In this document: one piece after another, positions 2,660 through 21,507 of the stretch
Numbering within the stretch: the first letter of the stretch is position 1
Layout of the letters: the number at the start of each line of letters is the position of its first letter
IMG/VR virus record: IMGVR_UViG_2690316064_000002
DNA from: a virus
Taxonomy: Duplodnaviria; Heunggongvirae; Uroviricota; Caudoviricetes
Reading direction: 5' to 3' (one strand)
DNA length: 21,765 nucleotides
The notes under the pieces: model-generated
Told to the model about the DNA's origin: nothing
Database searches by the model: none
Seen by the model: the letters and a program-made list of their open reading frames with translations, nothing else
Translations under genes and position numbers: made by a program

Positions 2660-3018
2660 ACGTTCTCCAGTTCGGTGATTTTTATTCCAAGCCGTCCGCC
2701 TGGTACTTTCACACCACGAATTACGCGAATGTCATCGAATTGCTCGTCGTCTTCCGCAAATCCGGCGTGGATAAGGGAGTCGAGTAAACCTTTCAGGATG
2801 TTATCGAGGTCGCGGCGGCGGGAGTCTGGAACGTCTGCTATGACTTTGATGCGGAGTCGTGATTTGGTGAAAATATCTAACTTGAGTTGGTGGATGATTT
2901 GCTGAACGTCTTTTCGGTATTTCTGGCCTTTATCGCTGATGTAGTATTGGCTTCCCCGTCTTCGCCAGTAGGTATTCACCGACGGCGGGTATGGAAGCAC
3001 AAACTGATATTCGTTCAT
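2656..3018 (-). CDS. rusA: RusA-family Holliday-junction resolvase
   Basis: 120 aa with RusA-like motifs (LPYPPSVNTYWRRRG..., DVPDSRRRDLDNILKGLLDSL...GGRLGIKITEL); overlapping stop/start with neighbours. Confidence 0.88.
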   Translation of the reverse strand: MNEYQFVLPYPPSVNTYWRRRGSQYYISDKGQKYRKDVQQIIHQLKLDIFTKSRLRIKVIADVPDSRRRDLDNILKGLLDSLIHAGFAEDDEQFDDIRVIRGVKVPGGRLGIKITELENV

Positions 3019-3305
3019 GACTTAATCTTCCCCTCCTTCAGCAGTATCGCCTGCGTCCTGATTACGCCTTCGAGGTGGTAAAGTCTGGCGTCTTTGTTGT
3101 CGAGATTATGGGTGCGTCTGTCGATTTCATCGTGACACGCGCTACAAGCCCATGCGCCGATCAGGTCTTCAGGCTTCATTCCAGTTCCGCAAATTCCAGC
3201 CATCCGGTAATGTGCCAGAACTGTAGTTTCAGGATTGCCATTGCATATGCCGTAAATACGAACCTGGCATTCTCTGCCGCGTGCTTCTTTGCGTAGGTTA
3301 GCCAT
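3015..3305 (-). CDS. ybcO: YbcO-like protein (DUF1364, putative nuclease)
   Basis: 96 aa; ARGRECQVRIYGICNGNPETTVLAHYR...CSACHDEIDRRTH resembles DLP12 YbcO; same gene order as DLP12 (ybcO-rusA). Confidence 0.7.
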   Translation of the reverse strand: MANLRKEARGRECQVRIYGICNGNPETTVLAHYRMAGICGTGMKPEDLIGAWACSACHDEIDRRTHNLDNKDARLYHLEGVIRTQAILLKEGKIKS

Positions 3306-4018
3306 TAAGCAGCCTCCCCTGTTACTTTCAGCATTCCGTTATCGAGCAGCTTTCTGGTCAGCCACTGTTGACCACGCCCGGTGATTTTTGTGGTGAACGA
3401 TATCTGTATTCCGTGATTTGTGTTGACCGCTGTTTCTTTCACTGTGAAATAGCCGCGCTCCATATATTCCTGCATTGGCACATTTCGCCGGGAACCTGAA
3501 GCAATAAGGATTTTGTGATCACGCATCCACGCAAACAGTTTGTTTGGACCAATACCAACAACCTTTGCATAGTTTCCAATCAAAATTCCGCTGGCCTCGC
3601 CAACGCGATCGGCAAACTCAACTTTAGGTGCGGCAATTGCGAGCTGGTTTTCTAGTTGCATTTTCTGCTCAGCAAGATCAGCAGCAAGGCGTAACGCTTC
3701 TGGTAGCGTTTTTGGGATATTAACCGCAGCTTCTTCAAGCTCTCGCCAACGGTCAACAAGACGAGCGGTGAATTCCGGCGACAACTGGGCAACGACAATA
3801 ATGCTGTCGCGCTTACCTTGTTCTCCTTCGAAGATGTAATAGCTTACCGGTCGGCCTGCGGTGGGCTTCTCCCCCATTGGGGGAAAAGCTATTACACCTC
3901 GTCCCGCCAGTCGTTCAATAGATTGTTTCACCTTGTCATGACGACTTCCCACCAACTCAGCGATTTCAATGCTGGTCATTTTGATGGCGTTGCTATTTAT
4001 CAGCTCATTCATTGTCAT
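3305..4018 (-). CDS. Rha-family phage regulatory protein with C-terminal antirepressor (KilAC/ANT-like) domain
   Basis: 237 aa; N-terminus MTSIEIAELVGSRHDKVKQSIERLAGRGVI is a typical Rha N-domain; the C-terminal half resembles antirepressor C-domains; SD GAGAGG upstream. Confidence 0.75.
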   Translation of the reverse strand: MTMNELINSNAIKMTSIEIAELVGSRHDKVKQSIERLAGRGVIAFPPMGEKPTAGRPVSYYIFEGEQGKRDSIIVVAQLSPEFTARLVDRWRELEEAAVNIPKTLPEALRLAADLAEQKMQLENQLAIAAPKVEFADRVGEASGILIGNYAKVVGIGPNKLFAWMRDHKILIASGSRRNVPMQEYMERGYFTVKETAVNTNHGIQISFTTKITGRGQQWLTRKLLDNGMLKVTGEAA

Positions 4019-13744: not shown

Positions 13745-14530
13745 ATGAGTACAGCACTCGCAACGCTGGCAGGGAAGCTGGCTGAACGTGTCGGCATGGA
13801 TTCTGTCGACCCACAGGAACTGATCACCACTCTTCGCCAGACGGCATTTAAAGGTGATGCCAGCGATGCGCAGTTCATCGCATTGTTGATCGTCGCCAAC
13901 CAGTACGGCCTTAATCCGTGGACGAAAGAAATTTACGCCTTCCCTGATAAGCAGAACGGCATTGTTCCGGTGGTGGGCGTTGATGGCTGGTCCCGCATCA
14001 TCAATGAAAACCAGCAGTTTGATGGCATGGACTTTGAGCAGGACAATGAATCCTGTACATGCCGGATTTACCGCAAGGACCGCAATCATCCGATCTGCGT
14101 TACCGAGTGGATGGATGAATGCCGCCGCGAACCATTCAAAACCCGCGAAAGCAGAGAAATCACGGGGCCGTGGCAGTCGCATCCCAAACGGATGTTACGG
14201 CATAAAGCCATGATTCAGTGTGCCCGTCTCGCCTTCGGATTTGCTGGTATCTATGACAAGGATGAAGCCGAGCGCATTGTCGAAAATACCGCATACACTG
14301 CAGAACGTCAGCCGGAACGCGACATCACTCCGGTTAACGATGAAACCATGCAGGAGATTAACACTCTGCTGATTGCCCTGGATAAAACATGGGATGACGA
14401 CTTATTGCCGCTCTGTTCCCAGATATTTCGCCGCGACATTCGCGCATCGTCAGAACTGACACAGGCCGAAGCAGTGAAAGCTCTTGGATTCCTGAAACAG
14501 AAAGCCACTGAGCAGAAGGTGGCTGCATGA
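13745..14530 (+). CDS. bet: Bet (Red-beta single-strand annealing protein)
   Basis: 261 aa [59 protein letters not shown]... = lambda Beta. Confidence 0.95.
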
Positions 14531-15207
14531 CACCGGACATTATCCTGCAGCGTACCGGAATCGACGTGAGAGCTGTCGAACAGGGGGATGATGCGTGGCA
14601 CAAATTACGGCTCGGCGTCATCACCGCTTCAGAAGTTCACAATGTGATAGCAAAGCCCCGCTCAGGAAAGAAGTGGCCTGACATGAAAATGTCCTACTTC
14701 CACACCCTGCTGGCTGAGGTTTGCACCGGTGTGGCTCCGGAAGTTAATGCTAAGGCGCTGGCCTGGGGAAAACAGTACGAGAACGACGCCAGAGCCCTGT
14801 TTGAGTTCACTTCCGGCGTGAATGTTACTGAATCCCCGATCATCTATCGCGACGAAAGTATGCGCACCGCCTGCTCTCCCGATGGTTTATGCAGTGACGG
14901 CAACGGCCTTGAACTGAAATGCCCGTTTACCTCCCGGGATTTCATGAAATTCCGGCTCGGTGGTTTCGAGGCCATAAAGTCGGCTTACATGGCCCAGGTG
15001 CAGTACAGCATGTGGGTAACGCGAAAAGATGCCTGGTACTTTGCCAACTATGACCCACGAATGAAGCGTGAAGGCCTGCATTATGTCGTGGTTGAGCGGG
15101 ATGAAAATTACATGGCGAGTTTTGACGAGATGGTGCCGGAGTTCATCGAAAAAATGGACGAGGCACTGGCTGAAATTGGTTTTGCATTTGGGGAGCAATG
15201 GCGATGA
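14527..15207 (+). CDS. exo: Exo (lambda 5'-3' exonuclease, Red-alpha)
   Basis: 226 aa [65 protein letters not shown]... = lambda Exo; start overlaps the bet stop. Confidence 0.95.
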
Positions 15208-15386
15208 AGCATCCTCACGATAATATCCGGGTAGGCACGATCACTTTCGTCTACTCCGTTACAAAGCGAGGCTGGGTATTTCCCGGCCTTTCTGTTATCC
15301 GAAATCCCCTGAAAGCACAGCGGCTGGCTGAGGAGATAAATAATAAACGAGGGGCTGTATGCACAAAGCATCTCCTGTTGAGTTAA
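15204..15386 (+). CDS. orf60a-like small protein
   Basis: 60 aa [29 protein letters not shown]...; ATG overlaps the exo stop (ATGA). The track begins 2 codons earlier. Confidence 0.65.
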
Positions 15387-15550
15387 GAACGAGCATTGAG
15401 ATGGCACATAGCCTTGCTCAAATTGGAGTCAGGTTTGTGCCAATACCAGTAGAAACAGACGAAGAATTTCATACGTTAGCCACATCCCTTTCACAAAAGC
15501 TGGAAATGATGGTGGCGAAAGCAGAAGCAGATGAGAGAGACCAGGTATGA
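15359..15550 (+). CDS. orf63-like small protein
   Basis: 63-aa ORF in the conserved position after orf60a. Confidence 0.65.
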   Translation: MHKASPVELRTSIEMAHSLAQIGVRFVPIPVETDEEFHTLATSLSQKLEMMVAKAEADERDQV

Positions 15551-15630
15551 CAACCACGGAATGCATTTTTCTGGCAGCGGGCTTCATATTCTGTGTGCTT
15601 ATGCTTGCCGACATGGGACTTGTTCAATGA
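15547..15630 (+). CDS. Hypothetical 27-aa hydrophobic peptide (MTTTECIFLAAGFIFCVLMLADMGLVQ), translationally coupled on both sides
   Basis: ATG overlaps the orf63 stop (ATGA) and its stop overlaps the next ATG (ATGA); below the track length cut-off. Confidence 0.3.
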   Translation: MTTTECIFLAAGFIFCVLMLADMGLVQ

Positions 15631-15842
15631 CACCTCAGCAGGAAAACGCCCTTCGCAGCATTGCCCGTCAGGCTAATTCTGAAATCAAAAAAGCCAGACA
15701 GCAGTTTCCGGATAAAAACGTCGATGACATTTGCCGTAGCGTACTGAAGAAGCACCGCGAAACGGTAACGCTGATGGGATTCACACCGACTCATTTAAGC
15801 CTGGCAATCGGCATGTTAAACGGCGTCTTTAAGGAACGATGA
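15627..15842 (+). CDS. orf61-like small protein (71 aa)
   Basis: ATG at 15627 (MTPQQENALRSIARQANSEIKKARQQFPDKN...); the track ORF begins upstream in the same frame. Confidence 0.55.
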   Translation: MTPQQENALRSIARQANSEIKKARQQFPDKNVDDICRSVLKKHRETVTLMGFTPTHLSLAIGMLNGVFKER

Positions 15843-15940
15843 ACATGAAAAGCAAAATCATCAGGGAGCTACAGGCTCCTTTTTTATTATTCGCATTCAC
15901 CCTCAAGCGTATTAACCAACAATTCAGGGATTAATGGAAG

Positions 15941-16162
15941 ATGGCAGACATCATTGATTCAGCATCAGAAATTGAAGAATTACAGCGCAACACAGCAATA
16001 AAAATGCGCCGCCTGAACCACCAGGCTATATCTGCCACTCATTGTTGTGAGTGTGGCGATCCGATAGATGAACGAAGACGCCTGGTCGTTCAGGGTTGTC
16101 GGACTTGTGCAAGTTGCCAGGAGGATCTGGAGCTTATCAGTAAACAGAGAGGTTCGAAGTGA
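15941..16162 (+). CDS. TraR/DksA-family C4 zinc-finger protein (lambda orf73-like)
   Basis: 73 aa with CxxC-17aa-CxxC (CCECGDPIDERRRLVVQGCRTCASCQ). Confidence 0.8.
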   Translation: MADIIDSASEIEELQRNTAIKMRRLNHQAISATHCCECGDPIDERRRLVVQGCRTCASCQEDLELISKQRGSK

Positions 16163-16566
16163 GCGAAATTAACTCTCAGGCACTGCGTGAAGCGGCAGAG
16201 AAAGCCGGTGAAGATAAGTGGCAGGCTAAAAAAATAAATGGTGATTTTTTCGTTATTCGTCACGGTAGTTATACAAGACAGCATGGCTACACATCGTATC
16301 AACCCATTGCGGAGATTGATTGTAAGCCAGTCCGGGATTTTGTTGCCAAGGCTAATCCGGCTACCGTGCTGGAATTACTGGATGAACTGGAAGCAGCAAA
16401 AAAGCGCATTGCAGAACTGGAAGCGCGGGAAATACTGCTCCCGGAACGTAGCAGCATGCTTCATCGAACAGATTTTCACGATGATTACCAAACGGTAATG
16501 GCATACAAAGTTTCTGAAGTCATCGATGCAATCCGCGCTACTGGCATTCGCATCAAAGGAGAGTGA
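16159..16566 (+). CDS. Ea22-like protein (shorter variant), GTG start
   Basis: N-terminus MSEINSQALREAAE and C-terminus GIRIKGE as in lambda Ea22 by recollection; central coiled-coil segment ELLDELEAAKKRIAELEARE. Confidence 0.55.
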   Translation: MSEINSQALREAAEKAGEDKWQAKKINGDFFVIRHGSYTRQHGYTSYQPIAEIDCKPVRDFVAKANPATVLELLDELEAAKKRIAELEAREILLPERSSMLHRTDFHDDYQTVMAYKVSEVIDAIRATGIRIKGE

Positions 16567-16567
16567 G

Positions 16568-17323
16568 ATGATTCACTACCACGGTGGGCCTATTACTCCT
16601 GATACGTGCGCAATGAGAGCATGGAAAGGGCGACATGCGTTTATCAGTTTTGCGCATTCAGGCCAGATCAATCTCGCGGCTGAATACTGTCAGTCGTTCG
16701 CGCTGGACAACGGTGCATTCACCGCCTGGAAAGCAGCTGGCAAAAACAAAATCGACTGGAGCGATTACTACGAGTTTGTTGCTCGCTGGAAGAATCACCC
16801 AGGATTCGATTTTGCCATTATCCCGGATATTATTGATGGCGGAGAGGAGGAAAATGATGCGCTTCTGAATGAGTGGCCTCACGGAAAACTAGCTGGCGTT
16901 CCAGTGTGGCACATGAATGAAAGTGACGCGCGATTTATTCATTTGTGCAATGAGTTTCCGCGAGTGGCTATCGGTAGTTGTGGCGACTATGACGTAAAGC
17001 GCCCAACTCTTGCGGTAGCCAGAATGAAAGACCTGATTCGTCACATTGTTGATGGGCATGGTCAGCCGGTTACGAAACTACATGGATTGCGCATGTTAAA
17101 TCCGCTGATATTCACAAAATTACCCTTAGCCAGCGCAGATAGTACGAACGTCGCTCGAAACATCGGTATTGATAAAGCCTGGTCTGGGGCTTATGCACCT
17201 GCAAGTAAAGAGACACGCGCAGCATTAATGGTAGAACGGATTGAGGCACACAATAGCCCTGGTTCTCTTGCGTATTGTGAACAACGCGACCGCTTTGAAA
17301 TGCAATTGCAACTAGCAGTTTAA
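16568..17323 (+). CDS. Hypothetical 251-aa protein of the early-left accessory region
   Basis: ATG at 16568 with AAGGAG upstream (track starts earlier at 16526); MIHYHGGPITPDTCAMRAWKGRHAFISFAHSGQ...; no family recognised. Confidence 0.55.
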   Translation: MIHYHGGPITPDTCAMRAWKGRHAFISFAHSGQINLAAEYCQSFALDNGAFTAWKAAGKNKIDWSDYYEFVARWKNHPGFDFAIIPDIIDGGEEENDALLNEWPHGKLAGVPVWHMNESDARFIHLCNEFPRVAIGSCGDYDVKRPTLAVARMKDLIRHIVDGHGQPVTKLHGLRMLNPLIFTKLPLASADSTNVARNIGIDKAWSGAYAPASKETRAALMVERIEAHNSPGSLAYCEQRDRFEMQLQLAV

Positions 17324-17333
17324 GGACTAACAA

Positions 17334-18131
17334 ATGACCACTATTACCAAAGAACGTATTGAATTGTTCATTAAAAATCCGCTTGAAAACGGGCTTACTC
17401 GTGGCGAACAAATGGAACTGGCACGAATTGCACTGGCATCACTGGAACGCGAACTGATTCGCCACGAGCATGCCAAATGGTCTGACTCCACATTTGGCTG
17501 CGTTGGCCCCATTGGTCCACTGAAACACCTCTCAAAAGAGGCTCTGGAAGCCGCAGCCGAACCAGACGATCTCAGCTAGTGGGCTGATATGCATTTCCTG
17601 TTGTGGGATGCACAGCGCCGTGCTGGCATCAGCGATGCTGAAATTACCGCTGCTATGGAAGATAAATTGAAGATCAACATGGAGCGCCAGTGGCCTGAAC
17701 CAAAAGATGGTGAGCCTCGCTTGCACATTAAAGAACCCGGCAACTCTCCGGTAATTCCGGATGGTTTATCCACGGTATGCGCTGAGGCTTATCAGGTTGT
17801 AGGAGTTATGGCAGATGCGCTTGGTGTATTCGGTGATGCAGCAGTACAGAAAGTTCTGGATAACCTGTCACAGCAAAAACTTGTTCACAGAGATGTGCTG
17901 CCGTTCTCGCTTCCGGTGACTCCGGATGGTTGGATAAGCTGTAGTGAGCGAATGCCGAAAGAAACGGGTGACATTATTGTTGTTTCGGATGGCATTGTAA
18001 TGTCCGGGATTTCTTATTCTCGTCGTGACGGGTTCTATATAGCCGCATTGGAGTACGACGACGATGAGCCAATTGGCGGTGTAACCCACTGGATGCCTCT
18101 ACCAGAACCGCCTCGATTAAAGGAGCTATAA
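17334..18131 (+). pseudogene. DUF550/DUF551-like accessory gene interrupted by an in-frame amber codon (TAG at 17577-17579)
   Basis: Track ORFs 17334..17579 and 17589..18131 are in the same frame, separated only by TAG (...EPDDLS * WADMHFLLWDAQ...). The C-terminal WISCSERMPKE...GVTHWMPLPEPP looks like DUF551 (domain names from memory). Confidence 0.5.
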
Positions 18132-18245
18132 TAGTGAACTATTATATCTATTTGTATTAAAAGAGTTTTTATAAAATAAATCTCCCAAAGCATGTAAAAA
18201 CACTGTTAATCTTAACGTGTGTGAAACGTGAAGAGAGGTGTTGAA

Positions 18246-18527
18246 ATGAGCATTCATGATTTGTGTGAAGATCAAGAGCAATGGGCTATGCAGACCCTTA
18301 TGGGATCAGGAGTTCTTGCAAGGTGCAGAATCCATAACGATGTAATTTTAGACAGCGGAAATGATGCTTCTTCTGCTTATAAATTAGGAACTTACCTATA
18401 TCAAAAAGATAATAGCTGCAACTTATTCAATACTCTTACTGAAGCCCGCGACGCAATAAAGGATGCATATGAATCGTATTGTGGGATCGATGATTGCCCA
18501 CAATGCTCAAAATACATTGACGATTAA
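18246..18527 (+). CDS. ea8.5: Ea8.5-like protein (93 aa)
   Basis: MSIHDLCEDQEQWAMQTLMGSGVLARCRIHNDV... with GAGAGG 7 nt upstream of the ATG at 18246; the track begins 6 codons earlier at a GTG. Confidence 0.75.
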   Translation: MSIHDLCEDQEQWAMQTLMGSGVLARCRIHNDVILDSGNDASSAYKLGTYLYQKDNSCNLFNTLTEARDAIKDAYESYCGIDDCPQCSKYIDD

Positions 18528-18615
18528 TAATATGAACAAGTAACTATCCTCGCACTCGCGGGGATTTCTTTTATCTGAACTCGCTACGGCGAGTTTTGTT
18601 TTATGGCGATGATAA

Positions 18616-18783
18616 ATGCACTTCCGAGTTACAGGTGAATGGAATGGAGAACCATTCAACAGAGTTATCGAAGCCGAGAACATCAGCGACTGCTATGACC
18701 ACTGGATGCTGTGGGCGCAGATAGCACATGCAGACGTAACCAATATTCGAATTGAAGAACTGAAAGAACACCAAGCCGCCTGA
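18616..18783 (+). CDS. orf55-like small protein (MHFRVTGEWNGEPFNRVIEAENISDCYDHWMLWAQIAHADVTNIRIEELKEHQAA)
   Basis: 55-aa ORF below the track cut-off; ends in a hairpin/T-tract. Confidence 0.45.
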   Translation: MHFRVTGEWNGEPFNRVIEAENISDCYDHWMLWAQIAHADVTNIRIEELKEHQAA

Positions 18784-18797
18784 TGGCGGTTTTTTCT
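18775..18797 (+). terminator. Hairpin plus T6 after orf55 (CCGCC-TGAT-GGCGG-TTTTTTCTT)
   Basis: Stem-loop incorporates the orf55 stop codon and is followed by a T-run. Confidence 0.45.
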
Positions 18798-18822
18798 TGC
18801 GTGTAATTGCGGAGACTTTGCG

Positions 18823-19041
18823 ATGTACTTGACACTTCAGGAGTGGAACGCTCGCCAGCGACGCCCAAGAAGCCTTGAAACAGTTCGTCGATGGGTGCGC
18901 GAATGCAGGATATTCCCTCCTCCGGTTAAGGATGGAAGAGAATATCTGTTCCACGAATCAGCGGTAAAGGTTGACTTAAATCGACCAGTAACAGGTAGCC
19001 TTTTGAAGAGGATCAGAAATGGGAAGAAGGCGAAGTCATGA
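18823..19041 (+). CDS. xis: Excisionase Xis
   Basis: 72 aa MYLTLQEWNARQRRPRSLETVRRWVRECRIFPPPVKDGREYLFHESAVKV... = lambda Xis; overlaps the int start. Confidence 0.95.
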   Translation: MYLTLQEWNARQRRPRSLETVRRWVRECRIFPPPVKDGREYLFHESAVKVDLNRPVTGSLLKRIRNGKKAKS

Positions 19042-20089
19042 GCGCCGGGATTTACCCCCTAACCTTTATATAAGAAACAATGGATATTACTGCTACAGGG
19101 ACCCAAGGACGGGTAAAGAGTTTGGATTAGGCAGAGACAGGCGAATCGCAATCACTGAAGCTATACAGGCCAACATTGAGTTATTTTCAGGACACAAACA
19201 CAAGCCTCTGACAGCGAGAATCAACAGTGATAATTCCGTTACGTTACATTCATGGCTTGATCGCTACGAAAAAATCCTGGCCAGCAGAGGAATCAAGCAG
19301 AAGACACTCATAAATTACATGAGCAAAATTAAAGCAATAAGGAGGGGTCTGCCTGATGCTCCACTTGAAGACATCACCACAAAAGAAATTGCGGCAATGC
19401 TCAATGGATACATAGACGAGGGCAAGGCGGCGTCAGCCAAGTTAATCAGATCAACACTGAGCGATGCATTCCGAGAGGCAATAGCTGAAGGCCATATAAC
19501 AACAAACCCTGTCGCTGCCACTCGCGCAGCAAAATCAGAGGTAAGGAGATCAAGACTTACGGCTGACGAATACCTGAAAATTTATCAAGCAGCAGAATCA
19601 TCACCATGTTGGCTCAGACTTGCAATGGAACTGGCTGTTGTTACCGGGCAACGAGTTGGTGATTTATGCGAAATGAAGTGGTCTGATATCGTAGATGGAT
19701 ATCTTTATGTCGAGCAAAGCAAAACAGGCGTAAAAATTGCCATCCCAACAACATTGCATGTTGATGCTCTCGGGATATCAATGAAGGAAACACTTGATAA
19801 ATGCAAAGAGATTCTTGGCGGAGAAACCATAATTGCATCTACTCGTCGTGAACCGCTTTCATCCGGCACAGTATCAAGGTATTTTATGCGCGCACGAAAA
19901 GCATCAGGTCTTTCCTTCGAAGGGGATCCGCCTACCTTTCACGAGTTGCGCAGTTTGTCTGCAAGACTCTATGAGAAGCAGATAAGCGATAAGTTTGCTC
20001 AACATCTTCTCGGGCATAAGTCGGACACCATGGCATCACAGTATCGTGATGACAGAGGCAGGGAGTGGGACAAAATTGAAATCAAATAA
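19019..20089 (+). CDS. int: Integrase Int (tyrosine recombinase)
   Basis: 356 aa MGRRRSHERRDLPPNLYIRNNGYYCYRDPRTGKEFGLGRDRRIAITEAIQ... matches lambda Int along its length. Confidence 0.97.
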   Translation: MGRRRSHERRDLPPNLYIRNNGYYCYRDPRTGKEFGLGRDRRIAITEAIQANIELFSGHKHKPLTARINSDNSVTLHSWLDRYEKILASRGIKQKTLINYMSKIKAIRRGLPDAPLEDITTKEIAAMLNGYIDEGKAASAKLIRSTLSDAFREAIAEGHITTNPVAATRAAKSEVRRSRLTADEYLKIYQAAESSPCWLRLAMELAVVTGQRVGDLCEMKWSDIVDGYLYVEQSKTGVKIAIPTTLHVDALGISMKETLDKCKEILGGETIIASTRREPLSSGTVSRYFMRARKASGLSFEGDPPTFHELRSLSARLYEKQISDKFAQHLLGHKSDTMASQYRDDRGREWDKIEIK

Positions 20090-20177
20090 TGATTTTATTT
20101 TGACTGATAGTGACCTGTTCGTTGCAACAAATTGATAAGCAATGCTTTTTTATAATGCCAACTTAGTATAAAAAAGC
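20075..20177. other. attL: attL: lambda P' arm (Int arm-type and IHF sites) plus 15-bp core (TTAGTATAAAAAAGC = reverse complement of GCTTTTTTATACTAA, 20163-20177)
   Basis: The sequence from the int stop to the core is the reverse complement of the lambda attP P' arm as I recall it; beyond the core it switches to host attB flank (AGGCTTCAACGG...). Confidence 0.9.
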
Positions 20178-20223
20178 AGGCTTCAACGGATTCATTTTTC
20201 TATTTCATAGCCCGGAGCAACCT

Positions 20224-21507
20224 GTGAACACATTTTCAGTTTCCCGTCTGGCGCTGGCATTGGCTTTTGGCGTGACGCTGACCGCCTGTAGCTCAACACC
20301 ACCCGATCAACGTCCTTCTGATCAAACCGCGCCTGGTACCTCTTCTCGCCCGATTCTGTCGGCAAAAGAAGCGCAGAATTTCGATGCTCAACACTATTTT
20401 GCATCCCTGACACCAGGTGCTGCAGCGTGGAATCCTTCCCCGATTACCCTGCCTGCGCAACCTGACTTTGTTGTCGGCCCGGCGGGTACTCAAGGTGTAA
20501 CGCATACCACGATTCAGGCGGCGGTAGATGCGGCAATTATCAAGCGTACCAACAAGCGCCAGTATATTGCCGTGATGCCAGGTGAGTATCAGGGAACGGT
20601 ATATGTTCCTGCCGCTCCGGGTGGAATTACTCTGTACGGTACAGGTGAAAAACCGATTGATGTGAAGATTGGGCTTTCCCTTGATGGGGGCATGAGCCCT
20701 GCCGACTGGCGTCACGACGTCAACCCGCGCGGCAAATATATGCCAGGTAAACCAGCGTGGTATATGTACGATAGCTGCCAGAGCAAACGCAGCAACAGTA
20801 TCGGTGTTCTCTGTTCAGCGGTCTTCTGGTCACAAAACAATGGCCTGCAACTGCAAAACCTGACCATCGAAAACACGCTGGGCGATAGCGTAGATGCGGG
20901 TAACCATCCGGCGGTGGCACTGCGTACTGATGGTGACCAGGTACAGATTAACAACGTGAACATTCTCGGTCGTCAGAACACCTTCTTTGTCACCAACAGC
21001 GGTGTGCAGAACCGTCTGGAAACGAATCGTCAGCCGCGTACGCTGGTGACCAACAGCTACATTGAAGGGGATGTGGATATCGTTTCTGGTCGCGGCGCAG
21101 TGGTGTTCGATAACACCGAATTCCGCGTGGTGAACTCACGTACTCAGCAAGAAGCGTATGTGTTTGCACCGGCAACGCTGTCCAACATTTACTACGGTTT
21201 CCTCGCTGTAAACAGCCGTTTCAATGCTTCCGGTGATGGCGTGGCGCAACTGGGCCGCTCGCTGGATGTTGATGCCAATACCAACGGTCAGGTGGTGATC
21301 CGTGATAGCGCCATCAACGAAGGTTTTAACACGGCTAAACCGTGGGCCGATGCGGTGATCTCTAATCGTCCGTTTGCGGGTAATACCGGCAGCGTAGATG
21401 ATAACGACGAAATACAGCGCAATCTGAATGACACTAACTACAACCGCATGTGGGAATACAATAACCGCGGCGTGGGTAGTAAAGTGGTTGCAGAGGCGAA
21501 GAAGTAA
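20224..21507 (+). CDS. ybhC: Host YbhC (pectinesterase-family outer-membrane lipoprotein), GTG start
   Basis: 427 aa with lipoprotein signal (LALALAFGVTLTACSS); matches E. coli YbhC, the gene flanking attB-lambda on the gal side. Confidence 0.93.
   Translation: MNTFSVSRLALALAFGVTLTACSSTPPDQRPSDQTAPGTSSRPILSAKEAQNFDAQHYFASLTPGAAAWNPSPITLPAQPDFVVGPAGTQGVTHTTIQAAVDAAIIKRTNKRQYIAVMPGEYQGTVYVPAAPGGITLYGTGEKPIDVKIGLSLDGGMSPADWRHDVNPRGKYMPGKPAWYMYDSCQSKRSNSIGVLCSAVFWSQNNGLQLQNLTIENTLGDSVDAGNHPAVALRTDGDQVQINNVNILGRQNTFFVTNSGVQNRLETNRQPRTLVTNSYIEGDVDIVSGRGAVVFDNTEFRVVNSRTQQEAYVFAPATLSNIYYGFLAVNSRFNASGDGVAQLGRSLDVDANTNGQVVIRDSAINEGFNTAKPWADAVISNRPFAGNTGSVDDNDEIQRNLNDTNYNRMWEYNNRGVGSKVVAEAKK

What the first reader, a model, noticed from the sequence alone, without database searches (positions are those of the whole stretch)
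17334..18131. In-frame amber codon splits a DUF550/DUF551-like accessory gene
Track ORFs 17334..17579 and 17589..18131 share a frame and are separated by one TAG (17577-17579: ...EPDDLS * WADMHFLLWDAQRR...). This is either a recent nonsense pseudogene, or a gene whose full-length product (about 265 aa) is made only with amber suppression or readthrough. An ATG 4 codons after the stop could allow reinitiation of the C-terminal DUF551-like part.
Basis: seen in the sequence. Interest (0 to 1): 0.45.

Follow-up and report, generated by a model that had tools for sequence, protein, structure and literature searches.

The report
Nonsense mutation in prophage accessory gene
A single G-to-T change has put a stop codon in place of a catalytic glutamate in a dispensable nucleotide-hydrolase gene of a lambda-like E. 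coli prophage: an ordinary knocked-out accessory gene, notable only because the broken copy has spread to several hosts and phage backbones.

Summary
ORFs 17334..17579 and 17589..18131 share a frame and are separated by one TAG (17577-17579). The repaired 265-aa product is a DUF550 (PF04447, MazG-like dATP/dGTP pyrophosphohydrolase) plus DUF551 protein.

The stop is a nonsense mutation, not a programmed feature.
- All 127 related loci examined carry GAG (Glu) at this codon.
- 31 complete E. coli genomes differ from the window over the 798 bp by one base. In the two I read, it is G at 17577.
- None of 431 complete genomes holding this 71-mer has the T.
- 105 of 106 complete viral orthologues are one continuous ORF through the domain.

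The stop lies inside DUF550, not between the two domains. It replaces Glu82 of the ExxE...ExxD metal-binding motif, which 138 of 140 family representatives keep and which aligns with Mn-binding Glu50 of cyanophage S-2L MazZ.

It is not a sequencing error or a private mutation. The exact 81-aa product occurs on 78 contigs, against at least 1000 for the intact protein. These share one haplotype but sit in at least four host ybhC haplotypes and three phage backbones.

The window has no tRNA, and the ATG at 17589 has no dedicated ribosome-binding site. Low interest.

The parts
17334..18131 (+). Disrupted eaA-like accessory gene. It has 265 sense positions, and the repaired product is an N-terminal leader, a DUF550 (PF04447) domain, a linker and a DUF551 (PF04448) domain.
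17577..17579 (+). Amber codon TAG, created by a G->T change at 17577 (GAG Glu82 -> TAG).
   Evidence: this is the only difference over 798 bp from L005 and L006; 127 of 127 related loci have GAG; 0 of 431 complete genomes have the T.
17334..17579 (+). N-terminal ORF of 81 aa. It holds the leader, helices 1-3 of the bundle and the E69xxE72 half of the metal site.
   Evidence: The exact product is on 78 public contigs.
17589..18131 (+). C-terminal ORF of 180 aa starting at conserved Met86. It holds the second half of DUF550, without the ExxE and ExxD acidic ligands (Asp85 lies between the stop and this ATG), followed by a linker and DUF551. It could be translated only by termination-reinitiation.
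   Evidence: Anti-SD duplex energy is -3.3 kcal/mol, against a mean of -2.9 for all ATGs in the window. Met86 is kept in 130 of 140 family representatives.
17457..17744 (+). DUF550 / dATP-dGTP pyrophosphohydrolase domain (aa 42-137), interrupted by the stop.
   Evidence: 138.1 bits against a cut-off of 23 for the repaired protein. The AlphaFold model has pLDDT of about 90 over aa 21-120. The top PDB fold match is 7ody_B, S-2L MazZ.
17538..17588 (+). Metal-binding motif E69-x-x-E72 ... E82-x-x-D85. The amber codon occupies the E82 position.
   Evidence: E69 139/140, E72 139/140, E82 138/140, D85 139/140. E82 and D85 align with chain residues E56 and D59 of 7ody, which are E50 and D53 in the paper's numbering. 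E50 binds Mn ions B and C, and D53 binds ion B.
17928..18113 (+). DUF551 domain (aa 199-260), a small beta-rich portable domain.
   Evidence: PF04448, 52.8-53.7 bits against a cut-off of 22. The model shows strands at aa 214-255. PMC10834534 calls it a portable domain.
16390..18112 (+). Mosaic module shared by all carriers of the amber allele. It comprises the upstream 251-aa gene (16568-17323) and the disrupted gene.
   Evidence: L136 shares window 16390-18803 and L138 shares 16198-18112, both with the window's haplotype SNPs.

Best explanation
This is a loss-of-function nonsense polymorphism in a dispensable accessory gene. The gene lies in the exo-xis region of a lambda-like prophage integrated next to ybhC. 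One ancestral G->T transversion changed codon 82 from GAG (Glu) to TAG in an eaA-like gene for a MazG-like dATP/dGTP pyrophosphohydrolase (DUF550) fused to a DUF551 domain.

Shown: translation of the normal product stops after 81 residues, in the middle of the helical bundle, at the Glu that in the solved homologue bridges two of the three catalytic metal ions.

Inferred: no active hydrolase can be made. The 81-aa fragment lacks half the fold. Any 180-aa product reinitiated at Met86 lacks all four acidic ligands. A rare readthrough product would carry Gln, Tyr, Trp or similar in place of the Glu.

The gene is non-essential and sits in the N-antiterminated pL operon. The next in-frame ATG is 10 nt downstream and int has its own expression route, so I expect the mutation to have little effect on phage growth, lysogeny or excision. 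The allele has therefore persisted as a neutral or nearly neutral minority variant. It has been carried into different E. coli hosts by lysogeny and into other phage backbones by homologous recombination of the mosaic module.
For: Sequence: the TAG is in frame.

Single-base origin: L005 and L006 differ from the window over 798 bp only at 17577, G instead of T. 31 complete genomes are 797/798 identical. None has the exact 71-mer around the stop, so in all 31 the single mismatch lies inside 17542-17612.

Sense codon in relatives: GAG in 127 of 127 loci. 105 of 106 complete IMG/VR orthologues are continuous ORFs through the domain. Annotated phage orthologues are single CDSs.

Domain split: PF04447 is cut at profile position about 38-45 of 97.

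Catalytic residue: E82 is kept in 138 of 140 50%-identity representatives. It aligns with MazZ E50, which coordinates Mn B and C (10.1101/2021.04.30.442174).

Real allele in a minority: the 81-aa product is on 78 contigs from NCBI, ENA and Logan, against at least 1000 (capped) for the identical intact protein.

Single origin followed by spread: carriers are identical to the window across about 15483-20297, with at most one private difference each. They differ in exo/bet and in host ybhC. L136 and L138 carry the same haplotype SNPs in P22-like and Uetakevirus-like backbones.

Dispensable region: the gene order is cI, N, kil, gam, bet, exo, ea22-like, this gene, ea8.5-like, xis, int. [quoted passage not shown]

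One carrier (L132) has an extra W120L change at a nearly invariant residue downstream of the stop. This fits relaxed constraint but is a single case.
Against: The allele has travelled through at least three backbones and several hosts without further obvious decay: 0-1 extra substitutions in 10 carriers. This is also what a selected allele would look like, although the whole block shows too little divergence to discriminate. No expression data exist, so production of the 180-aa fragment, and any function it may have, cannot be excluded. The host suppressor status of the carrier strains was not examined.
Confidence: 0.86

Rival explanations
1. Selected gene fission or inactivation. On this view the amber allele is kept because losing the hydrolase activity, or producing the two fragments, benefits the phage or lysogen. 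The 81-aa N-fragment together with a 180-aa fragment carrying DUF551, made by termination-reinitiation at ATG 17589, might relieve toxicity, evade a host sensor, or poison the oligomeric DUF550 enzymes of competing phages.
For: The allele is found in at least four ybhC host haplotypes and three phage backbones, with the C-terminal ORF intact in all 10 carriers read. The ATG lies 10 nt after the stop. DUF551 is a portable domain found with many partners. The solved homologue MazZ is a tetramer whose active sites form at chain interfaces.
Against: The allele is a minority one: 78 contigs against at least 1000, and 0 of 431 complete genomes. ATG 17589 has no dedicated Shine-Dalgarno sequence (-3.3 kcal/mol, 38th percentile of all ATGs). 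Met86 is an ordinary conserved domain residue. The lack of decay is uninformative because the whole 4.8-kb block is nearly identical among carriers. One carrier already has W120L at a nearly invariant residue.
Confidence: 0.08
2. Conditional or programmed full-length expression. On this view the 265-aa protein is made by amber suppression in hosts that carry a suppressor tRNA, or by natural UAG readthrough, so that the stop acts as a regulatory device.
For: The downstream frame is open and intact for 183 codons. From my own knowledge, not checked here, amber suppressors do occur in natural coliforms (Marshall and Levy 1980).
Against: The stop is not conserved: orthologues have GAG in 127 of 127 loci and are single ORFs. 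The window has no tRNA gene. The codon replaced is a near-invariant metal-binding Glu. To my knowledge, the usual suppressors and near-cognate readthrough insert Gln, Tyr, Ser, Leu, Lys or Trp, so a readthrough product would probably be catalytically impaired. The base after the stop is U (UAG-U), which to my knowledge is an efficient termination context in E. coli.
Confidence: 0.03
3. Sequencing or assembly error in the window's source. On this view the true sequence is GAG.
For: A single-base difference from dozens of otherwise identical genomes.
Against: The same TAG is present in independent assemblies from NCBI, ENA metagenomes and Logan runs. These comprise 78 contigs in 162 index blocks, with different flanking sequence.
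Confidence: 0.01

Closest known systems
Intact E. coli prophage DUF550-DUF551 protein (the 'Eaa/EaA' protein of lambdoid and P22-like phages; for example the 265-aa proteins P0001/P0151, or the orthologous ORF in E. coli RM14721, locus L005)
   Same: Identical at every one of the other 264 residues. In the lambda-like prophages at ybhC (L005, L006) it occupies the same position between the 251-aa gene and the ea8.5-like gene, upstream of xis-int.
   Different: The window has TAG where these have GAG (Glu82), so it encodes an 81-aa product and possibly a 180-aa product instead of 265 aa.
MazZ / DUF550 (d)GTP-dATP pyrophosphohydrolases of Z-genome phages (S-2L MazZ, PDB 7ODY; the DUF550 enzymes of phiVC8 and Acinetobacter phage SH-Ab 15497)
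   Same: The same MazG-HisE-like helical fold: top PDB fold match with TM 0.71 on the target and 28% identity, and the only profile hit in the PDB. The same ExxE...ExxD acidic ligands. The Pfam family name derives from that activity.
   Different: The match is remote (E about 0.1). The window's prophage shows no purZ/datZ context and carries an extra N-terminal leader and a DUF551 tail. In this window the third acidic ligand is a stop codon. Activity on dATP/dGTP has not been shown for the E. coli prophage protein.
Genes of the lambda exo-xis region (ea22, ea8.5, orf60a-63)
   Same: The same genomic neighbourhood and transcription unit (pL, N-antiterminated), mosaic and dispensable for growth. 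An Ea22 variant also carries DUF551.
   Different: Lambda itself has no DUF550-DUF551 gene here. The roles reported for exo-xis genes in the lysis-lysogeny decision have not been tested for this gene.

Membership tests
PF04447 (DUF550, dATP/dGTP pyrophosphohydrolase; MazG-like all-alpha NTP pyrophosphatase) | Match to the family HMM above the gathering score | tested here: met
   Repaired protein: 138.1 bits against a cut-off of 23. N-fragment 48.7 bits and C-fragment 69.4 bits, each covering only about half of the profile.
PF04447 (DUF550, dATP/dGTP pyrophosphohydrolase; MazG-like all-alpha NTP pyrophosphatase) | Complete set of acidic metal ligands ExxE...ExxD on one polypeptide | tested here: not met
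   E69, E72 and D85 are encoded, but E82 is TAG, and the chain breaks between the two half-motifs. Relatives keep all four ligands in 138-139 of 140 sequences.
PF04447 (DUF550, dATP/dGTP pyrophosphohydrolase; MazG-like all-alpha NTP pyrophosphatase) | MazG-HisE-like helical fold | tested here: met
The AlphaFold2 model has pLDDT of about 90 over aa 21-120. The best PDB match is 7ody_B, S-2L MazZ: prob 1.00, TMt 0.71, rmsd 3.1 A, though the Foldseek E-value is 0.12. 2gta, B. subtilis YpjD, is also listed.
PF04447 (DUF550, dATP/dGTP pyrophosphohydrolase; MazG-like all-alpha NTP pyrophosphatase) | Hydrolysis of dATP/dGTP to dNMP and PPi | not testable with these tools
   The activity is reported for DUF550 proteins of Z-genome phages, not for this prophage protein.
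PF04448 (DUF551) | Match to the family HMM above the gathering score | tested here: met
   53.7 bits against a cut-off of 22, at aa 114-175 of the 180-aa ORF.
Programmed stop-codon readthrough or suppressor-dependent gene | The stop codon is conserved at this position in orthologues | tested here: not met
   GAG in 127 of 127 related loci. 0 of 431 complete E. coli genomes have the T.
Programmed stop-codon readthrough or suppressor-dependent gene | A suppressor tRNA supplied by the element | tested here: not met
   ARAGORN finds no tRNA in the 21.8-kb window. The host chromosome was not available.
Programmed stop-codon readthrough or suppressor-dependent gene | Leaky termination context or a stimulatory structure | not tested
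   Only the sequence UAG-U was noted.
Nonsense pseudogene (loss-of-function allele) | Differs from intact, otherwise identical orthologues by a point mutation that creates a stop inside a conserved domain | tested here: met
Two adjacent genes with independent translation starts | The second ORF has its own ribosome-binding site, and orthologues are split in the same way | tested here: not met
   Anti-SD duplex of -3.3 kcal/mol at ATG 17589, against -5.8 at the true start 17334 and a window-wide ATG mean of -2.9. Orthologues are single ORFs.

The most novel reading that the evidence does not exclude
The amber allele is maintained by selection rather than drift. The reason could be that the split products have a function of their own: an 81-aa half-domain plus a 180-aa DUF551-bearing fragment made by termination-reinitiation might, for example, poison the oligomeric DUF550 enzymes of rival phages. 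Alternatively, full-length synthesis could be restricted to hosts that carry a suppressor. Its presence in three phage backbones and several host lineages would then reflect positive spread.
Probability: 0.05. Interest if true: 0.5.

Novelty: already known. Interest (0 to 1): 0.1.

Why it matters
It matters little. The finding is a textbook nonsense polymorphism in a non-essential prophage gene, and both fragments are already deposited as separate 'DUF550 domain-containing proteins'.

Two points have modest value. First, the same broken allele can be followed by its linked SNPs through a lambda-like, a P22-like and a Uetakevirus-like backbone, which makes it a convenient natural marker of module exchange among E. 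coli temperate phages. Second, it shows that the DUF550 hydrolase activity is dispensable for persistence of these prophages in natural E. coli populations.

For annotation, the two ORFs should be merged and flagged as one pseudogene rather than two genes.

Tried and rejected
- An exact-pattern scan of genome contigs for the TAG allele found nothing. This is uninformative, because that collection holds one genome per species.
- A single-sequence search of the PDB gave only a spurious GST hit. The profile search and the fold search were needed to reach MazZ.
- NCBIfam has no model for either this protein or the upstream one.
- Sequencing error was rejected because of independent assemblies.
- Recurrent mutation was rejected because L136 and L138 share the window's haplotype-specific SNPs around the stop: 18184 and 18568-18709 in L136, and 16387 in L138.
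- The idea that the allele is private to one strain looked right after (0 of 431 complete genomes) but was overturned by the exact-protein look-up.
- Independent-gene status for ORF 17589..18131 was rejected on the strength of the SD test and on orthologue structure.
- The best whole-window match among complete genomes (H71, 88% coverage) has a different mosaic at this position, so it gave no orthologue.
- A literature search for DpdA-like genes in E. coli prophages returned nothing directly relevant.

Full report
OBSERVATION. On the + strand, 17334-18131 translates as MTTITK...EPDDLS*WADMHFLL...RLKEL*. There is one internal stop, TAG at 17577-17579, between an 81-aa ORF (17334..17579) and a 180-aa ORF (17589..18131) in the same frame.

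WHAT THE GENE IS. With the stop replaced, the 265-aa product matches two Pfam families. PF04447 (dATP/dGTP pyrophosphohydrolase, formerly DUF550) matches at aa 42-137 with 138 bits. PF04448 (DUF551) matches at aa 199-260. The stop does not fall between the two domains. It cuts PF04447 itself: the N-fragment covers profile positions 1-38 and the C-fragment covers positions 45-96 of 97.

An AlphaFold2 model built on 100 family representatives is confident over the helical domain (pLDDT about 90 for aa 21-120). It shows a disordered linker followed by a small beta-rich DUF551 domain. Its best match among solved structures is 7ody_B, the MazG-like pyrophosphohydrolase MazZ of cyanophage S-2L (prob 1.00, TM 0.71 on the target, 28% identity). 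A profile of the family finds the same entry as its only PDB hit. Both matches are remote (E about 0.1), but they agree with each other and with the Pfam assignment.

In that alignment the family's '..DL-s-E-W-A-D..' segment pairs with MazZ chain residues E56 and D59. These are E50 and D53 in the numbering of the structure paper, which reports that E50 coordinates Mn ions B and C and that D53 coordinates ion B (10.1101/2021.04.30.442174). Among 140 representatives of 50%-identity clusters that cover this segment, E69, E72, E82 and D85 are kept in 139, 139, 138 and 139 sequences. The amber codon therefore replaces a near-invariant catalytic ligand of the ExxE...ExxD motif.

GENOMIC CONTEXT. The window is the early region of a lambda-like prophage integrated next to ybhC. 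On the + strand the genes run in this order:
- a cI-like repressor
- N
- a DUF2528 protein
- kil, gam, bet and exo
- DUF1317 and DUF1382 proteins
- a TraR/DksA zinc-finger protein
- an Ea22-like protein
- a 251-aa protein
- the gene in question
- an ea8.5-like protein
- xis and int

The gene therefore lies in the exo-xis accessory region of the N-antiterminated pL operon. The literature describes this region as mosaic and dispensable for replication (PMC10834534).

IS THE STOP ANCESTRAL OR DERIVED? It is derived.
- Four phage orthologues (phiv142-3, ev017, Stx1a_EH2115, VSe13) have GAG at this codon and are annotated as single CDSs where annotation exists.
- Among 5,426 complete E. coli genomes, 57 carry a near-full-length copy and 31 of these are 797/798 identical.
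- In the two of those I read (L005, L006), the one difference is G at 17577.
- None of the 431 genomes that hold the 71-mer around the stop matches it exactly (best 70/71). So in all 31 genomes the single mismatch lies within that 71-mer.
- A degenerate pattern scan of IMG/VR, together with the loci already fetched, gave GAG at this codon in 127 of 127 cases.
- In 105 of 106 viral loci where the ORF is complete, it runs uninterrupted through the domain. At least 63 codons lie upstream of the codon and at least 58 downstream.

IS IT AN ERROR OR A PRIVATE MUTATION? It is neither. An exact look-up of the 81-aa product found it in 162 index blocks. The ten places returned include NCBI isolate assemblies, ENA gut metagenome scaffolds and Logan assemblies, all with TAG followed by the 180-aa (or 179-aa) ORF. 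The cluster table counts 78 contigs for the 81-aa product and 37 for the 180-aa product. The otherwise identical intact 265-aa protein is on at least 1000 contigs, which is the counting cap. The amber allele is thus real but in the minority.

ONE ORIGIN, THEN SPREAD.
- Two carriers are 100% identical to the window over about 6 kb.
- Five others are identical from about 15483 to 20297, with at most one private difference each. They differ by about 30 SNPs in bet/exo and by 2-4 SNPs in the host gene ybhC, which gives at least four ybhC haplotypes.
- L136 shares only window 16390-18803. It sits in a P22-like backbone with SSB, Abc2-type anti-RecBCD and a different integrase.
- L138 shares only 16198-18112 and sits next to a small terminase subunit, as in the Uetakevirus phiv142-3.

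Both L136 and L138 carry the window's haplotype-specific SNPs relative to the intact allele of L005. For L136 these are 18184 and eleven positions between 18568 and 18709. For L138 it is 16387. Shared descent plus recombination is therefore far more parsimonious than recurrent mutation. It follows that phages carrying the amber allele remained transmissible.

CAN A FUNCTIONAL PRODUCT STILL BE MADE? The window has no tRNA gene. The host's suppressor status could not be examined. From my own knowledge, not tested here, the base after the stop is U, an efficient termination context in E. coli. Also from my own knowledge, natural amber suppressors and near-cognate readthrough insert Gln, Tyr, Ser, Leu, Lys or Trp rather than Glu. 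A rare readthrough product would then lack the ligand that bridges two metals.

The in-frame ATG at 17589 lies 10 nt after the stop, so termination-reinitiation is mechanistically plausible. However, this ATG is just the conserved Met86 of the domain (130 of 140). Its anti-Shine-Dalgarno duplex energy is -3.3 kcal/mol. That compares with -5.8 for the true start at 17334 and a mean of -2.9 (sd 2.6) for all 435 ATGs in the window. No dedicated start has evolved there. A reinitiated 180-aa product would have none of the four acidic ligands and only the last two helices of the bundle, but it would have an intact DUF551 domain. Because DUF551 occurs with many different partners, residual DUF551 function cannot be excluded.

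One carrier (L132) has an additional W120L change at a nearly invariant residue downstream of the stop. This fits relaxed constraint but is a single case.

MECHANISM AND CONSEQUENCES (inferred). The mutation causes loss of the pyrophosphohydrolase activity. I expect little polarity on ea8.5, xis and int, for three reasons drawn from established lambda biology rather than tested here. pL transcription is N-antiterminated, and an N gene is present. Ribosomes can resume 10 nt downstream of the stop. And int has its own promoter in lambda. The spread of the allele through hosts and backbones agrees with this neutrality.

COMPARISON WITH KNOWN THINGS. The gene is a member of PF04447/PF04448 by sequence and, once repaired, by fold. 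The window's allele fails the 'complete metal site on one chain' criterion. It works like a knocked-out MazG-like enzyme gene, not like a programmed readthrough gene. The features that define readthrough genes, a conserved stop and a supplied suppressor, were tested and not met.

NOVELTY AND SCORE. This is an ordinary nonsense polymorphism and already known in kind. Both fragments are already deposited as separate 'DUF550 domain-containing protein' entries. The only mildly interesting aspect is that the dead allele serves as a traceable marker of module exchange among three types of temperate phage. Interest is 0.1. The most novel reading not excluded is that the split allele is under selection, through functional fragments or suppressor-dependent expression. 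I put its probability at about 0.05.

Noticed in passing
window 16526/16568-17323 (+): The gene immediately upstream is annotated 'hypothetical protein' in RefSeq (251 aa). It has no Pfam or NCBIfam hit but matches phrog_887 'queuine tRNA-ribosyltransferase' at E = 5.8e-102. That makes it a candidate DpdA/Tgt-like DNA-guanine transglycosylase. It moves together with the DUF550-DUF551 gene as one module of about 1.7 kb into three phage backbones. A guanine-transglycosylase-like gene paired with a (d)GTP/dATP pyrophosphohydrolase-like gene may be a functional unit.
   Followed up: partly
L005, L006 and L007, positions 3001-3798 (orthologues of window 17334-18131 in RefSeq complete genomes): RefSeq/PGAP splits the intact, continuous 265-codon ORF in two. 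It annotates a 120-bp 'pseudo, missing C-terminus' fragment plus a CDS that starts in frame at codon 32 (ATT, read from the window sequence) or at codon 60. This looks like an annotation artefact of the mosaic N-terminal leader. It means truncated 224-234-aa versions of the protein are widespread in the databases.
   Followed up: partly
window about 14374-15482 compared with L130-L134: Carriers of the amber allele are almost identical to the window from about 15483 to 20297 (at most one private difference each). They differ by about 30 clustered SNPs in the bet/exo segment, which marks a sharp mosaic recombination boundary near 15482.
   Followed up: partly
window 20298-20550 (ybhC, host flank): There are at least four different ybhC haplotypes next to essentially the same prophage left arm. 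This suggests repeated lysogenisation of different E. coli lineages at the site next to ybhC, or recombination in the host flank.
   Followed up: no
window 18546-18596 and 18773-18792 (+): Three strong terminator-like hairpins with T-runs lie between the ea8.5-like gene and xis. In total 9 terminator-like sites were found in 16000-19100, against 2.8 expected from shuffles.
   Followed up: no
L135 (CP169410.1) positions 197-876: The exo (YqaJ) gene is split into 129-aa and 115-aa pieces, and there are 7 gap openings relative to the window. This is probably a long-read assembly with indel errors, so its extra SNP at window position 17672 should not be over-interpreted.
   Followed up: no
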